Shown here piece after piece: positions 9,291-58,813 of a stretch of 64,000 bases of DNA. Below the pieces are notes generated by a model. It was given only the letters and a program-made list of their open reading frames with translations, was not told where the DNA came from and did no database searches. Origin of the DNA: a virus; IMG/VR virus record IMGVR_UViG_3300011116_000709, positions 3,973 through 67,972 of that record, one strand, 5' to 3'. Numbering within the stretch: position 1 is the stretch's first letter; each line of letters opens with the position of its first letter. A program made the position numbers and the translations under genes.

Positions 9291-10145
9291 TTATCCTGTA
9301 GTGCCTGTCAGCCCTGTTGTTCCCAACCAATCAACCGTTACACCGGCTGCAAGTGTAGAGTTGTTTTGATACTCGTAAATCTTGGCATATGGAGTGTAGT
9401 TGTACTTGGCTGAACTTGCACCGCTTGGGCCAGTAATACCAACAAATACTTTGGAATCTGTTCCCGTAACTCCACCGAGTGTATTTCCTCCAGTGAAACT
9501 TGGAAAGTAATTGAAATCGTAAATCTTGGCATCCACTTTGCGAATCTCGCTATAACTGCGAACATTACCAAAGATGTAGGACTTCATGGTGAAGTTGAGG
9601 GTAAAGATAATGCTACGACGGTTTTGAAAATCGCCTTCGTAGTCCTCTTCAGAAGACACAGAGTTCAAGTAGATGGGCACATCTACTTTGGTGTTCACCG
9701 CATCAAAGTTGATGGTGGCTACAAACTCGGGAGCAAAATACGGAAGAATCTGCTCTATGATCTGTAGCCCGTCGTCCATGTTTCGCACATACACATACAG
9801 CCCAAAGTCAATGTTGTATGGAACTTCGGAAAATGTGTACTTTACACCAGACGAAGTACTGTCTCGCACAATGTTTCGCTGGCTGCTGTTTCGTTTTCGT
9901 GTGGGATCGTATGCAAATCCTGTGATTTCAAATGCCATTCGGGGCAGGGTAATCTGCATGGGATTCTGTAGATACGGATCGCCTGCAATACGCACTTTAT
10001 ATTTTTCTTTGGGTGCATACGCTAGAGGAACCTCAATGTACTTGGTTCCGCTGCTCTCGGTGCGTGATATCTTGATTTGGTTGAATATAGCACCAAATGC
10101 AACCACCATTCGTCTGATGGACTGATTATAGAACTGTGTAAACAT
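9291..10145 (-). CDS. gp15: Tail sheath stabiliser / tail terminator
   Basis: FY..SIRR.VVAFG.IFN, VPLAYAPKEK, LPRMAFEI, QIIEQILPYF.P motifs. Confidence 0.95.
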   Translation of the reverse strand: MFTQFYNQSIRRMVVAFGAIFNQIKISRTESSGTKYIEVPLAYAPKEKYKVRIAGDPYLQNPMQITLPRMAFEITGFAYDPTRKRNSSQRNIVRDSTSSGVKYTFSEVPYNIDFGLYVYVRNMDDGLQIIEQILPYFAPEFVATINFDAVNTKVDVPIYLNSVSSEEDYEGDFQNRRSIIFTLNFTMKSYIFGNVRSYSEIRKVDAKIYDFNYFPSFTGGNTLGGVTGTDSKVFVGITGPSGASSAKYNYTPYAKIYEYQNNSTLAAGVTVDWLGTTGLTGTTG

Positions 10146-54489: not shown

Positions 54490-55350
54490 TTAGGAGTTTT
54501 CTGCGTCTAATTCTTCAAAAATTGTGATCCACTTGGGGTCTTCACCTCGACGCAGGTACGCAGCCTTTGAAAAACTCCACTCTTCTCGCTCTTGAATGCG
54601 ATATCCTGCCTTGTGCTTCTTGGCGTAACGACGAGCAGCCTCTTGATCTTCAAAATACTCGTAGTTGCCTTCGTCATCCATCGCACCCCACAGACCGCTA
54701 GAGGTTTTCCACACATCGCCTGCTTTGTGCTTGTGTGCAGCAGCGGCACTTTCACCGCTCTTCTCTTGTTCACCGCCTGCTGCCTGCTGTGGTTCGTCCT
54801 TGACATTAAATACAAACTTCTTGCCGCTGTGTGGGCCCTTGCGAAGTTGTGAGAAGAACTGCACAACCTTGTGCTTGGCGAGTTCAAGGTTGTTCTGTCC
54901 TTCACCCTTCTTGAAACGCATGAGAACTTTACCAATTCCAGCACTTTCGTTCGTGCCGATATAGTAAAAGTCCTGATCGTTCTTGTACATCACCGAGTGT
55001 TGCTTGTAGTGGCGACCCAACTTGACGATTTCTTCCTTTTTGATGTTGGGAATGAGCAGACTCAATTCCTCAACAACACCACCTTCTTCTTGGTAGCCGC
55101 CCTTCATCTCAATATAACCGTATCCCATGTCGCGGACACGCTTCTTGAGGTCATCGTGGAGTTTCTTGTTCTCTTCGCGTGAGTTTTCACCACGGAAAGC
55201 ACTCACAATACCAAAATCCTTGCTGTCGTCTTCCACATACTGGAAAACGCGAGACAGTTTGGCTTCAATTAGTGGAGTTTCGGTCGCGTTTTTGCGATCA
55301 AGCCACTCGTTTAGTCCGTTTTGGTCAAGAAATTGTGAAAACTTCTTCAT
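54490..55350 (-). CDS. Hypothetical protein, possible internal head protein
   Basis: MKKFSQFL...LNE leader; GIVSAFR...EN......L...G+GY....G.Y.E....E.S domain; late-type promoter at 55381-55387. Confidence 0.65.
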   Translation of the reverse strand: MKKFSQFLDQNGLNEWLDRKNATETPLIEAKLSRVFQYVEDDSKDFGIVSAFRGENSREENKKLHDDLKKRVRDMGYGYIEMKGGYQEEGGVVEELSLLIPNIKKEEIVKLGRHYKQHSVMYKNDQDFYYIGTNESAGIGKVLMRFKKGEGQNNLELAKHKVVQFFSQLRKGPHSGKKFVFNVKDEPQQAAGGEQEKSGESAAAAHKHKAGDVWKTSSGLWGAMDDEGNYEYFEDQEAARRYAKKHKAGYRIQEREEWSFSKAAYLRRGEDPKWITIFEELDAENS

Positions 55351-56707: not shown

Positions 56708-57700
56708 TCAAATAGTCTCGGCATTATGTGAGAAACGAATATCGTGAAGTTCAGGAATATTACCGTATGACAATTCTTTAGCCAAATACATTTTGAATCC
56801 ACCCAAATCATTGAATTGGACTATTTCACCGTTGTGAATTAGTTTAAACACACCAACCCGAGACAGCACATCACACTTGTTGATGATTAGTTCAGAACAA
56901 CCTGACAACTTAATTGCTGAAATCAACTTGTCTAGATTCAGCCAGTTCGCAAGCCGCTTTCGCCCTGTGGTTGTGCCGTATTCGCCACCCTCGCGGATAA
57001 GTGCGTCAATCTGCGGGTCTTCCCAAAGGGTTTCGGGGAACAGAGGATCGGTTCCGCTCTTGGTGTCGTATGCTTTGGCAACACCAATCAGCCTGTTCAG
57101 TTTTCTTGGGGAAAAGCCAATAGAACAAGCCCCGTAAGGCATAGTAGAACTGCTAGTAACATACGGGTAATCTCCGTGATCTATGTCTAGCCAAACACTC
57201 TGTGCTCCTTCACACAAGATGTGTCCGTCCAACTCTCCGTCCCACAACCAATCAGAAATGAAATACTCCGCTGCTCGCCGTCCGCAACGCAGCATCTTGT
57301 CTGCGTAACACGGGGCAATTCCTTGCTTGGTTGTTCCTAGATGAGACAGGTTCTTGGTGTCGTAATCAATATGTGCAGCAGTAATGATATGAGCCGCAGG
57401 TGAAATCTTGACAAGGCTGGTATCAAAACCTTCACTACGGAGGTAGCGAATCTCTTCAAAAAACTTATCGGTGTTAATCACACAGCATGGTCCAATCAAA
57501 CACCGCTTGCCTGCAAAAATTCCTGAAGGGATGATATGGGTCTTGTGCTTCTTGCCGTTCACCCATACGGTGTGCCCTGCGTTTGGGCCGCCGTTCCAAC
57601 GACACACCCAATCGTATCGGGGAGCCATTGCAGCAGACACCTTTCCCTTGCCTTCGTCACCCCATGCCAAACCGTACACCACATCAACGCTTTGAATCAT
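56708..57700 (-). CDS. purA: Adenylosuccinate synthetase (short form)
   Basis: WGDEGKGK, GGPNAGHT, GTT.QGI.P.Y.DK, EGAQ..LD.D.G.YPYVTSS, EYGTTTGR.R, NK.DVL. Confidence 0.95.
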   Translation of the reverse strand: MIQSVDVVYGLAWGDEGKGKVSAAMAPRYDWVCRWNGGPNAGHTVWVNGKKHKTHIIPSGIFAGKRCLIGPCCVINTDKFFEEIRYLRSEGFDTSLVKISPAAHIITAAHIDYDTKNLSHLGTTKQGIAPCYADKMLRCGRRAAEYFISDWLWDGELDGHILCEGAQSVWLDIDHGDYPYVTSSSTMPYGACSIGFSPRKLNRLIGVAKAYDTKSGTDPLFPETLWEDPQIDALIREGGEYGTTTGRKRLANWLNLDKLISAIKLSGCSELIINKCDVLSRVGVFKLIHNGEIVQFNDLGGFKMYLAKELSYGNIPELHDIRFSHNAETI

Positions 57701-57951: not shown

Positions 57952-58307
57952 TGCTCGTCCTCACTATCAAACTTTGGCGGTTCCGACTTCTTTACTTCAG
58001 ACACAACACCATTCAAACTTTTTACAACTTTTGATTTTGGTGTGTTAAAGCAATCCCAACCTTGATTTTCGGCATGTTCAACTGCATCAGGACTAATGTA
58101 GGCAGACTTGCCACCTTTACCTGCAACAATCATACACACTTCACGCCGTGCCTCGTCACGCTCATTCTGCAACTGCTCACACTTTGTCACCAAATCTTCA
58201 ATGTGAGAAGTAAGTTCTTCAATCGTATCAGCGGCTTCCCGACAACGCAGTTCCACAGAACGGTCATTGTTCAAGACGCTTCGTAACCATTCAACAATAT
58301 CACTCAT
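57948..58307 (-). CDS. Hypothetical protein
   Basis: MSDIVE.LR...EAAD.IE.L, ERDEARREVC..GWDCF; SD GGAG. Confidence 0.75.
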   Translation of the reverse strand: MSDIVEWLRSVLNNDRSVELRCREAADTIEELTSHIEDLVTKCEQLQNERDEARREVCMIVAGKGGKSAYISPDAVEHAENQGWDCFNTPKSKVVKSLNGVVSEVKKSEPPKFDSEDEQ

Positions 58308-58323
58308 AGTATTCTCCGTTTAG

Positions 58324-58585
58324 TGCCCCCAGCAGGACTTGAACCTGCAACCTACCGATTAACTTACCACTTCGGTTTGCACCGCCCTTACGGTTCGTGG
58401 TCTGGACTTTATCTTCATCCGTTCTGGATGCCCGCCGTCAAGTCTCTACACCTTCCCTTTCGGGCTTGGCTCGGTATTGGGTCTTGTGACCGTCCACCGA
58501 ATTTGACGGGATTCAGATATCGCATTCCTGCGAAACTGCTCCTATTATTTAAAGTCGGCTACTCTACCAATTGAGTTATGGAGGC
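58324..58585 (-). tRNA. tRNA-Lys(UUU) interrupted by a group I intron (exons 58585-58552 and 58362-58324)
   Basis: A 34-nt exon and a 39-nt exon join into a 73-nt cloverleaf: GCCTCCA/TGGGGGC, GCCGA-CT-TTT-AA-TCGGT, GGTTCAAGTCC. Confidence 0.92.
58363..58551 (-). ncRNA. Group I intron, 189 nt, no internal ORF
   Basis: Exon ends in U, intron ends in G; P AAATTCGGTGGA, Q AATACCGAGCC, R GTAGAGACTTGA, S AAGATAAAGTCCA; P3 CCGTCAA/TTGACGG. Confidence 0.9.
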
Positions 58586-58597
58586 TGAAATCCTTTC

Positions 58598-58813
58598 TCA
58601 AAACAGACTAGGCTGTTGTGAATCGTTTTCTACACGAATGCGGACACGCAAATCGTCCAACGCATCGGTAAGACGCATAATCAAATTTTCAAGTTCCAAC
58701 GCGGTGTAACTCTCCACCATCTCAATGGTGTCCACTCCGAAAACTGCCACACACGGCTTGTTACCCTTGTGAGGATTGCGAACAATCTGCGTTCTGAAAT
58801 GTGTGTTGTCCAT
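58598..58813 (-). CDS. Hypothetical protein
   Basis: 71-aa ORF with SD AAGGAG. Confidence 0.65.
   Translation of the reverse strand: MDNTHFRTQIVRNPHKGNKPCVAVFGVDTIEMVESYTALELENLIMRLTDALDDLRVRIRVENDSQQPSLF

What the first reader, a model, noticed from the sequence alone, without database searches (positions are those of the whole stretch)
58324..58585. tRNA-Lys(UUU) split inside the anticodon by a very small (189 nt) group I intron
Seen: removing 58551-58363 yields a 73-nt tRNA-Lys. The 5' exon ends at U34, which can pair with a G in the nearby UAGGAG guide. The insert ends in G and has P, Q, R and S core elements, P3 and P7 pairings, and no ORF. Known: bacterial tRNA group I introns are classically in Leu(UAA), fMet, Ile(CAU) and Arg(CCU), and the Azoarcus intron (about 205 nt) is the usual minimal example. 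T-even introns sit in protein genes. Inference: a phage tRNA-Lys intron shorter than the Azoarcus one is a candidate minimal ribozyme at an unusual site. Standard tRNA scanners could miss it.
Basis: partly seen in the sequence, partly recalled or inferred. Interest (0 to 1): 0.88.

Follow-up and report, generated by a model that had tools for sequence, protein, structure and literature searches.

The report
Small group I intron, phage tRNA-Lys
The lysine-tRNA gene of this uncultured T4-like water phage is split in its anticodon by a real, very small self-splicing-type (group I) intron that belongs to the known bacterial tRNA-intron family, is present in some close relatives and absent in others, and is one of many such introns hidden in phage tRNA genes.

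Summary
Rfam's group I intron model hits 58381-58561(-) at 64.3 bits (cut-off 50). Removing 58363-58551 in silico gives a 73-nt tRNA-Lys(UUU). All 7 other syntenic phage contigs fetched carry that tRNA uninterrupted. DNA contigs of two runs skip exactly these 189 bases.

The intron has no ORF of 60 aa or more on its own strand. It has P1-P10, with a U34·G pair at the 5' splice site and a terminal G. A 35-sequence alignment of relatives supports the fold: 97% of cells are paired against 27-41% in slid controls, and 29 pairs show compensatory changes. The guide sequence covaries with the anticodon of each host tRNA.

It is not unique. One 18-nt core motif found at least 120 viral contigs, 80 of 125 segments being split tRNAs. 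Nine unique ones are tRNA-Lys(UUU), with introns of 183-212 nt. The motif also found 90 split tRNAs in bacterial genomes. The site is the classical tRNA-Leu(UAA) site.

The intron is 16 nt shorter than the 205-nt Azoarcus intron, mainly through a 15-nt P8, but it is not the smallest relative. This scan noted the same kind before on other DNA. Splicing itself is untested.

Verdict: a new member of a known kind.

The parts
58552..58585 (-). 5' exon of tRNA-Lys(UUU): acceptor 5' strand, D arm, anticodon stem 5' strand, loop nt C32 U33 U34
   Evidence: ARAGORN on the in-silico spliced sequence; matches the intron-less alleles
58363..58551 (-). 189-nt group I intron with no endonuclease gene; last base G58363 is the omega G
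   Evidence: (RF00028 64.3 bits), (DNA contigs of two runs skip exactly 189 bases)
58324..58362 (-). 3' exon of tRNA-Lys(UUU): U35 U36 A37 A38, anticodon stem 3' strand, variable loop, T arm, acceptor 3' strand, A73
58539..58544 (-). Internal guide UAGGAG. GAG (58541-58539) pairs with exon C32-U33-U34 to form P1, with U34.G58541. UAG (58544-58542) can pair with 3' exon U35-U36-A37 to form P10
   Evidence: P1 is kept in 35, 35 and 33 of 35 relatives and P10 in 31, 31 and 26 of 35, covarying with the anticodon
58514..58538 (-). P2 hairpin (10 pairs, with one U-U mismatch and one bulge) capped by the GNRA loop GGAA (58528-58525)
   Evidence: (9 of 10 pairs with changes on both sides)
58505..58510 (-). 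P3, 5' strand (CCCGUC)
   Evidence: (helix 2: 100% of cells paired, 4 of 6 pairs compensatory)
58471..58500 (-). P4 (58500-58495 with 58476-58471) enclosing P5 (GGUC/GACC, loop ACAA, 58491-58480)
   Evidence: Between the window and L007 the last two P4 pairs change U-A to U.G and G.U to G-C
58455..58465 (-). P6 hairpin (CCC/GGG with a GAAA loop). L007 has an 8-nt tandem duplication here
58431..58452 (-). Conserved R-type core: P7 5' strand (G58446, 58444-58440), a 3-nt joiner, and P3 3' strand (58436-58431)
   Evidence: P7 is paired in 99.5% of cells but never varies, so it carries no covariation evidence
58416..58430 (-). Shortened P8: a 15-nt hairpin (5 pairs, 5-nt loop), against 22-31 nt in 27 of the 28 relatives outside this clade
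   Evidence: (model positions of P8 deleted)
58402..58416 (-). S-type core: J8/7 and P7 3' strand (58409-58404)
58366..58401 (-). 3' domain: P9.0 (58401-58397 with 58370-58366) enclosing two GNRA-capped hairpins, P9a (CC-GUAA-GG, 58393-58386) and P9 (CGGU-GCAA-ACCG, 58384-58373)
   Evidence: (P9: 4 of 4 pairs compensatory). Between the window and L007 a U-A pair becomes C-G and both loops stay GNRA

Best explanation
This is a bona fide group I intron of the bacterial tRNA-intron (IC3-type) family, carrying no endonuclease gene. It is inserted between U34 and U35 of the only tRNA-Lys(UUU) gene seen in this fragment of an uncultured T4-like myovirus. Inferred mechanism: the tRNA is transcribed within the minus-strand gene block. 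The intron folds into P1-P9. Its guide GAG pairs with exon C32-U33-U34 (U34.G), and a free guanosine attacks after U34. The terminal G58363 then enters the same site, the guide's UAG aligns the 3' exon (U35-U36-A37, P10), and the exons are joined to restore the loop CUUUUAA. The product is an ordinary tRNA-Lys. At the DNA level the intron is an optional, laterally moving element. Close relatives, and even the same samples, hold intron-less alleles. It has no endonuclease of its own and none was found in the 68-kb record. Spread would therefore depend on recombination between co-infecting phages, a nuclease encoded elsewhere, or reverse splicing. Shown: sequence, fold, covariation, the exact empty site and the presence/absence polymorphism. 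Inferred: catalysis, autonomy and the route of spread.
For: 1. Family match. RF00028 scores 64.3 bits against a cut-off of 50, E 5.2e-14, over the full model.
2. Exact restoration. The spliced product is a 73-nt tRNA-Lys(ttt). All 7 other syntenic contigs have an uninterrupted tRNA-Lys(ttt) directly after the same 71-aa gene (Rfam tRNA 70.6-73.2 bits). L009 has an identical anticodon arm, so it is an empty site.
3. DNA contigs of runs X1 (depth 16.2) and X9 (9.1) skip exactly 189 bases. Other X1 contigs cross both exon-intron borders with 0 differences.
4. A second contig (L007) carries a 196-nt version. Its exons are identical (73 of 73) and its changes keep pairing: in P9 U-A becomes C-G, in P4 U-A becomes U.G and G.U becomes G-C, and all tetraloops stay GNRA.
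5. Fold. I aligned 35 of the 54 unique mapped relatives. RNAalifold recovers P2, P3, P4, P5, P6, P8, P9.0, P9a and P9, with 29 of 47 pairs compensatory. With P7 added, 97.0% of 1706 cells pair, against 27-41% when partners are slid. The covariation score is 0.552 against 0.06-0.10, and 0 of 500 shuffles reach it.
6. The guide covaries with the host anticodon. Exon base +1 pairs with the guide in 31 of 35: U.G or U-A in Lys, C-G in Arg(UCU), A-U in Leu, G-C in Thr and Ser.
7. The sequence alone folds to the same helices: MFE -58 kcal/mol, z -3.2.
Against: No splicing was observed, and I obtained no RNA-level evidence. The Rfam score is only 14 bits over the cut-off, and L007 scores 51.3, barely above it. 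P1 has just 3 exon pairs. P2 has a U-U mismatch. P7 never varies in my sample, partly because my search pattern fixed one strand, so it has no covariation support. P8 is cut down to 15 nt and lacks the CCUAA...AUGG-type stretch seen in 21 of the other 28 aligned relatives. A tertiary clamp may therefore be missing, and splicing could need help from a protein. The alignment rows were chosen by me (35 of 54), all share one exact 18-mer and they are related to each other, so the shuffle control overstates significance.
Confidence: 0.85

Rival explanations
1. The intron has the group I fold but is not autonomous. With its truncated P8 it needs a phage or host protein (an RNA chaperone or dedicated cofactor) to fold and splice at useful rates.
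For: P8 is 15 nt and lacks the receptor-like stretch present in 21 of the 28 other aligned relatives. L2 is GGAA instead of GAAA. P1 has only 3 exon pairs. The Rfam score is modest.
Against: GGAA and the 15-nt P8 occur together in 7 of 7 sequences spread over Lys, Arg and Thr-called hosts. This looks like a conserved alternative contact rather than decay. All other helices are intact and covary. The 205-nt Azoarcus relative self-splices efficiently at 37 C (PMC13168695, passages).
Confidence: 0.15
2. The intron is kept because it benefits the phage. It could delay or gate maturation of tRNA-Lys, or keep the anticodon loop unformed in the precursor so that host anticodon nucleases aimed at tRNA-Lys cannot cut it.
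For: Introns in viral contigs concentrate in U34 tRNAs: Leu UAA, Lys UUU, Arg UCU, Thr UGU, Ser UGA.
Against: The spliced tRNA matches the intron-less allele of L009 throughout its anticodon arm, so it is no better protected once mature. 7 of 9 contigs of this lineage, counting the window, do without the intron. Both forms co-occur at similar contig depth in one sample, as expected for a near-neutral selfish element. The U34 bias also follows from the requirement for a U before the splice site.
Confidence: 0.08
3. The intron is a dead relic, so this tRNA-Lys gene is a pseudogene.
For: No RNA evidence of splicing was obtained. The intron has no endonuclease gene, and P8 is reduced.
Against: Every core helix, the U.G pair, the terminal G and a matching P10 are intact. 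The window and L007 differ at about 10% of intron positions, yet the changes keep pairing and their exons are identical. No other tRNA-Lys was found in the window.
Confidence: 0.05

Closest known systems
Group I intron of cyanobacterial, plastid and other bacterial tRNA-Leu(UAA) genes ('Leu.3Ug' in Williams 2020, bioRxiv 10.1101/2020.01.27.920355)
   Same: Same insertion point (after U34, loop CUU/...). Same P1 guide GAG. Same exact 18-nt R/P7/P3' motif. Alignable throughout. No endonuclease gene.
   Different: The host tRNA is Lys(UUU). The P10 part of the guide is UAG rather than UUU, to match U35-U36-A37. P8 is 15 nt rather than 22-25 nt, and L2 is GGAA rather than GAAA. It is shorter: 189 nt, against a median of 203 in 27 viral and 237.5 in 18 bacterial Leu introns. 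The best identity to any bacterial intron in my sample is 70%.
Azoarcus sp. BH72 tRNA-Ile(CAU) IC3 intron, 205 nt (PMC13168695 and PMC3895272, passages)
   Same: A compact tRNA anticodon-loop group I intron without peripheral domains. Introns in the same tRNA context (CAU, site 5) share the 18-nt core motif (16 of 90 bacterial split tRNAs).
   Different: The Azoarcus intron is inserted after the anticodon, not inside it, and is 16 nt longer. The window intron is at most 60% identical to CAU-site-5 introns. I did not align the Azoarcus sequence itself, so any statement about its tetraloop-receptor clamps comes from my recollection.
tRNA-Lys(UUU) group I introns in other viral contigs and bacterial MAGs
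   Same: Same tRNA, same site, same guide UAGGAG (UAAGAG in two). L035, L065 and L116 share the short P8 and GGAA and are 82-87% identical to the window intron.
   Different: Different phages: the tRNA exons are only 64-85% identical. Sizes are 183-212 nt. The bacterial MAG examples are 206-223 nt, and three of the five map one base further on, at site 4. I could not confirm that Williams 2020 lists a Lys type. Its table and figures are images, and 'Lys' occurs in the held text only inside the word 'analysis'.
Small group I introns in capsid genes of Pelagibacter phage HTVC120P and Chosvirus KM23C739, and in the RNR gene of Rhizobium phage RHph_N3_13
   Same: These are the nearest matches among 50,697 deposited phage records (73.7% over 134 bases and 80.3% over 76 bases). 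They share the same core and are small: the gaps between annotated capsid CDS pieces are 191 and 186 nt. RF00028 scores are 77-84 bits.
   Different: They interrupt protein-coding genes, and KM23C739 lacks the P9a/P9 hairpins. HTVC120P itself gave no RF00028 hit at the gathering threshold. I did not map exact splice sites.
'Enigmatic' introns in tRNA genes of Lak megaphages (Devoto et al. 2019, PMC6784885, passages)
   Same: Introns in phage tRNA genes that are present or absent among variants. The authors state that introns in phage tRNAs had not been reported before.
   Different: The passages I read do not class them as group I, and one is predicted to encode a tRNA.

Membership tests
Group I intron (Rfam RF00028) | Covariance-model score at or above the curated gathering threshold | tested here: met
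   64.3 bits against 50, E 5.2e-14, model positions 1-253. The relative L007 scores 51.3 bits.
Group I intron (Rfam RF00028) | The 5' splice site follows a U that forms a U.G wobble pair in P1 with an internal guide | tested here: met
   U34(58552).G58541, U33-A58540 and C32-G58539. The U.G pair is kept in 35 of 35 aligned relatives.
Group I intron (Rfam RF00028) | The intron ends in G (omega G), and P10 pairs the guide with the 3' exon | tested here: met
   G58363. UAG 58544-58542 pairs with U35-U36-A37. P10 covaries with the anticodon across Lys, Arg, Thr, Ser, Glu and Leu hosts: 31, 31 and 26 of 35.
Group I intron (Rfam RF00028) | Conserved core P3-P8 with the P3/P7 pseudoknot | tested here: met
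   P3, P4, P5, P6 and P8 are supported by compensatory changes. P7 is paired in 99.5% of cells but invariant, so it is uninformative.
Group I intron (Rfam RF00028) | Precise excision restores a functional host gene | tested here: met
   In silico only. The product is a 73-nt tRNA-Lys(ttt), 0-5 bases different from the uninterrupted alleles of relatives. DNA contigs show an exact 189-base skip.
Group I intron (Rfam RF00028) | Guanosine-dependent self-splicing | not testable with these tools
   No experiment was possible. The RNA-library contigs laid showed no joint, which says nothing either way.
Subgroup IC3 (bacterial tRNA introns) | Homology to the classical tRNA-Leu, fMet, Ile2 and Arg(CCU) introns | tested here: met
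   The exact 18-nt core motif occurs in 72 bacterial split tRNAs of those four contexts (25, 18, 16 and 13 of 90). The window intron aligns end to end with viral Leu(UAA) introns. The IC3 label for those four comes from Williams 2020 (main text).
Subgroup IC3 (bacterial tRNA introns) | A GAAA L2 docking into an 11-nt receptor in P8 (a feature I recall for Azoarcus-type introns) | tested here: not met
   The window has L2 GGAA and a 15-nt P8 without the CCUAA...AUGG stretch. 21 of 35 aligned relatives have that stretch, and 27 of 35 have GAAA. Its status as a defining feature is from recollection.
tRNA-Lys(UUU) | Cloverleaf with a 7-nt anticodon loop, U33, anticodon UUU, a purine at position 37 and A73 | tested here: met
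   ARAGORN drawing of the spliced sequence. The uninterrupted homologues score 70.6-73.2 bits with Rfam tRNA.
Mobile intron with a homing endonuclease | An endonuclease gene inside or beside the intron | tested here: not met
   No ORF of 60 aa or more lies on the intron's strand. Four flanking ORFs have no nuclease domain. HNH, HNH_3 and GIY-YIG gave 0 matches in the 67,972-b record, which is estimated 37% complete.

The most novel reading that the evidence does not exclude
The window intron and its nearest relatives (183-196 nt; L007, L035, L065, L116, and the same module in an Arg(UCU) and a Thr-called host) form a miniaturised clade seen so far only in viral contigs. In it the usual L2(GAAA)-long-P8 clamp has been swapped for GGAA plus a 15-nt P8 hairpin. 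If these RNAs self-splice without protein, they would be the smallest natural self-splicing group I ribozymes I could find any record of, about 10% smaller than Azoarcus. They would also show that introns without endonuclease genes move between the tRNA genes of unrelated phages. More broadly, group I introns would be common in phage tRNA genes, contrary to the 2014 review statement that all phage introns lie in protein-coding genes.
Probability: 0.3. Interest if true: 0.65.

Novelty: new member of a known kind. Interest (0 to 1): 0.48.

Why it matters
1. Annotation. tRNA finders miss such genes. Phage tRNA inventories, and the codon-usage or host-range arguments built on them, are therefore incomplete. 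Even the cultured jumbo phage Atu_ph07 has an unannotated split tRNA-Leu.

2. Biology of mobile introns. The 2014 review (PMC3984707, passages) says every phage intron known then sat in a protein gene despite many phage tRNA genes. Devoto 2019 says phage tRNA introns had not been reported. My ten searches found no paper describing group I introns in phage tRNA genes. Here, one motif alone finds 80 split tRNAs in viral contigs.

3. Ribozyme work. Introns of 183-189 nt with a reduced P8 are natural candidates for a smaller model ribozyme than the 205-nt Azoarcus intron.

4. Population genetics. Intron-plus and intron-minus alleles coexist in one sample. Exon identity travels with the intron, which is a tractable case of intron spread without an intron-encoded nuclease.

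Tried and rejected
RNA evidence for splicing. I laid one DNA run and three RNA-labelled runs on 58150-58750. All are Logan contigs. The only joint, the 189-base skip, stands in X1 (DNA) and X9 (labelled RNA-Seq but probably DNA), so it shows an intron-less DNA allele, not splicing. X15 and X16 (RNA) gave no joint and cover the stretch only partly. Nothing follows from that.

Assembly artefact. Rejected. Two independent contigs carry the intron, 14 runs hold at least half of the sampled words, and X1 contigs cross both borders without differences.

Alternative splice sites. One base further on is equally possible at the DNA level, but the intron would then end in U. ARAGORN accepts many other U/G combinations. 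I ranked them by the highest ARAGORN score threshold they survive. The Lys(ttt) site-3 solution is the unique best for the window (115% against 105%). For L007 it ties with an 'Asn gtt site 2' call, which I overrode by homology with the window. I also overrode L031, taking Glu over Asp.

Uncertain boundary calls: L018, L033, L038, L104 (the two 174-nt values) and L088 (Thr site 3 or Lys site 4).

Rows dropped before the alignment: 19 of 54. They were L018, L033, L038 and L104 (uncertain ends); L027 (a different site class); L039, L044 and L081 (long inserts); and L055, L057, L067, L073, L097, L098, L099, L105, L108, L123 and L128 (near-duplicates of included Leu or Arg rows).

Homing endonuclease beside the intron, a lead from earlier notes e1-5934272 and e1-5706548. 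None was found here.

Own promoter or terminator. One weak sigma-70-like site at 58939-58911 and 0 terminators, no more than in shuffles.

'Lys.3Ug is listed by Williams 2020'. I could not verify this.

Literature. Ten searches found no paper describing a group I intron in a phage tRNA gene. 'Smallest group I intron' returned nothing. Subscription journals are not covered.

Not used: protein-database searches, structure prediction and complex prediction. The feature is an RNA.

Full report
WHAT IS THERE. The window is 64 kb of a 67,972-base IMG/VR virus record that CheckV rates 37% complete. PHROG hits identify portal, sheath, large terminase and baseplate genes. The portal is 53% identical to those of T4-like cyanophages. 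The record is therefore part of an uncultured T4-like myovirus. Runs holding the stretch are labelled freshwater, sediment, aquaculture and viral metagenomes.

On the minus strand a 34-nt 5' tRNA half (58585-58552) and a 39-nt 3' half (58362-58324) are separated by 189 nt.
- ARAGORN finds no tRNA here in default mode, and the Rfam tRNA model has no hit.
- With the 189 nt removed in silico, ARAGORN reads a 73-nt tRNA-Lys(ttt).
- Rfam's Intron_gpI model matches 58381-58561(-) end to end at 64.3 bits (gathering 50), E 5.2e-14.

THE EMPTY SITE. The 71-aa gene just upstream has relatives on 8 loci from viral contigs. One of these (L015) is the same contig as L007.
- The other 7 all carry an uninterrupted tRNA-Lys(ttt) at the same place. 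They differ from the window's joined exons at 4-5 of 73 positions, and L009 has an identical anticodon arm.
- L007 carries the intron (196 nt, RF00028 51.3 bits) with exons identical to the window's.
- The intron does not follow the flanks. The upstream protein of the intron-less L008 and L009 is 92% identical to the window's, while that of intron-bearing L007 is 78%. Exon identity travels with the intron. Co-conversion during lateral transfer would produce this pattern; that reading is an inference.
- In public runs, DNA contigs of X1 and X9 skip exactly 189 bases, while other contigs of X1 cross both borders without a difference. Both alleles therefore coexist in one sample.

ANATOMY (coordinates).
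- Guide UAGGAG, 58544-58539. GAG pairs with C32-U33-U34 (U34.G), and UAG can pair with U35-U36-A37 (P10).
- P2, 58538-58514, capped by GGAA.
- P3 (58510-58505 with 58436-58431), P4, P5 (loop ACAA) and P6 (GAAA loop).
- P7 (58446/58444-58440 with 58409-58404).
- A 15-nt P8 (58430-58416).
- P9.0 enclosing two GNRA hairpins.
- The terminal base G58363.
The sequence alone folds into these helices (MFE -58 kcal/mol, z -3.2).

A LARGE FAMILY.
- Of 125 motif-centred segments, which include the window's own locus and earlier loci, 80 are split tRNA genes.
- I mapped splice sites by requiring U before and G at the end, then ranked candidates by the ARAGORN thresholds they survive.
- This gave 54 unique sequences: Leu(UAA) site 3, 27; Lys(UUU) site 3, 9; Arg(UCU) site 3, 4; Arg(UCU) site 2, 4; Thr(UGU), 2; Ser(UGA), 2; and single cases of other tRNAs.
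- The nine Lys introns are 183, 184, 185, 185, 189 (the window), 196, 196, 200 and 212 nt.
- The same motif found at least 120 bacterial genome contigs, 90 of them split tRNAs: CAU site 2, 25; Leu(UAA) site 3, 18; CAU site 5, 16; Arg(CCU) site 5, 13; and 5 Lys(UUU) of 206-223 nt, all in MAG contigs.
The first four are the classical bacterial contexts, which Williams 2020 says a database classes as IC3. The window intron is therefore a member of that family by homology.

STRUCTURE TEST. I aligned 35 of the 54 unique sequences; the dropped rows are listed under Tried and rejected.
- RNAalifold gives P2, P3, P4, P5, P6, P8, P9.0, P9a and P9, with 29 of 47 pairs compensatory.
- With P7 added, 97.0% of 1706 cells pair, against 27-41% for slid partners. 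The covariation score is 0.552 against 0.06-0.10.
- P7 is invariant, so it is uninformative.
- Anchored at the splice sites, P1 holds in 35, 35 and 33 of 35, and P10 in 31, 31 and 26 of 35. The guide base opposite nucleotide 35 changes with the anticodon.
- Misses are L088 and L125 (mapping or alignment doubtful), L032 and L127 (A opposite G), and several third-position mismatches.
The tuning of the guide to each host tRNA is the strongest indirect sign that these introns are used.

SIZE. The Azoarcus intron is 205 nt, so the window's is 16 nt shorter. The difference lies mainly in P8, which is 15 nt here against 22-31 nt in 27 of the 28 other aligned relatives.
- L2 is GGAA in all 7 sequences with the 15-nt P8, and GAAA in 27 of the other 28.
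- Introns in viral contigs are smaller than bacterial ones: median 202 (n=54) against 237.5 (n=90). For Leu site 3 alone the medians are 203 and 237.5.
- Values under 190 nt occur in 7 of 54 viral and 0 of 90 bacterial sequences. Two of the seven (174 nt) rest on doubtful ends.
- The p-values ignore relatedness.
The intron is small, but it is neither unique nor the smallest. Capsid-gene introns of the same family in deposited marine phages leave gaps of 186-191 nt.

MOBILITY. No endonuclease gene was found inside the intron, beside it or elsewhere in the record. Among Lys introns, the intron is often more conserved than its host tRNA: window against L035, 82% and 69%; L126 against L133, 91% and 65%. 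This fits transfer between different phages but does not prove it.

WHAT IS IN PRINT.
- Hausner 2014 (PMC3984707, passages) says all phage introns known then were in protein genes.
- Devoto 2019 (PMC6784885, passages) says tRNA introns had not been reported in phages, and calls theirs enigmatic.
- Williams 2020 (main text) raises bacterial tRNA intron types from 4 to 21. It does not mention phages, and the held text does not name the new types.
- My ten searches found nothing on group I introns in phage tRNA genes.
- Earlier notes of this scan describe the same kind of Lys intron on other DNA (e1-5934265, e1-5859447, e1-6231178).

VERDICT. This is a real feature with ordinary chemistry: a new member of the IC3-type tRNA-intron family, in a host gene and a kind of genome that the literature I could search does not cover. 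Interest is moderate. The wider pattern, with many small introns hidden in phage tRNA genes and a reduced-P8 clade, is worth more than this single case.

Noticed in passing
window 56708-57700 (-) and 59316-60377 (-): The 330-aa 'short PurA' hits PHROG 1211, described as '2-aminooxy adenylosuccinate synthetase' (E 4e-65), as well as Pfam Adenylsucc_synt. It may be a PurZ-type enzyme, as found in phages with 2-aminoadenine genomes (the PurZ link is my recollection). The neighbour is an IMPDH/GMP-reductase-family protein.
   Followed up: partly
L255 (Agrobacterium phage Atu_ph07, MF403008.1, about 113,000-113,350): This cultured 490-kb phage has an unannotated tRNA-Leu(UAA) split after U34 by a 278-nt intron of the same family. 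ARAGORN reads the in-silico spliced form as an 84-nt tRNA-Leu(taa). Rfam gave no hit at the gathering threshold. The two papers that mention both this phage and introns say nothing about it in the passages or listing I saw.
   Followed up: partly
L005 1419-1637 (LR756501.1, 735-kb uncultured phage): tRNA-Leu(UAA) with a 205-nt group I intron at site 3. The record has no annotation.
   Followed up: partly
L002 about 1479-1669; L003 1447-1627 and 2156-2336; L004 1381-1630: The major capsid genes of Pelagibacter phage HTVC120P and Chosvirus KM23C739 are annotated in pieces, and so is the RNR gene of Rhizobium phage RHph_N3_13. Small introns of the same family lie in the gaps. L003 and L004 hit RF00028 at 77-84 bits. 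L002 gave no hit at the gathering threshold and matches only by blastn and alignment.
   Followed up: partly
L007 about 9470-9490 (-): The L007 intron carries an 8-nt tandem duplication (stem plus GAAA loop) in P6 relative to the window. This accounts for most of its 196 nt.
   Followed up: no
window 54490-55350 (-): A 286-aa protein with a Pfam S-AdoMet_lyase family match (E 2e-11) plus DUF3293. It may be an anti-restriction SAM-degrading enzyme.
   Followed up: no
window 62487-62793 (-): A permuted (two-piece) tmRNA gene: RF04321 71.1 bits, ARAGORN tag ANRMAMAA. A relative (L014) has one too, at 74.9 bits.
   Followed up: no
viral loci L016-L134 and bacterial loci L135-L254: 45 of 125 viral and 30 of 120 bacterial motif-bearing segments are not called as split tRNAs. 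These presumably sit in protein genes, tmRNA or rRNA, or in tRNAs that ARAGORN cannot pair up.
   Followed up: no
L088 679-884 (-), L104 2535-2722 (+), L031 503-715 (+): ARAGORN with introns allowed first called these as anticodon UCA. My mapping gave Thr(UGU) or Lys site 4, Ser(CGA), and Glu(UUC). Their true identity is unresolved and could include stop-codon-reading tRNAs.
   Followed up: no
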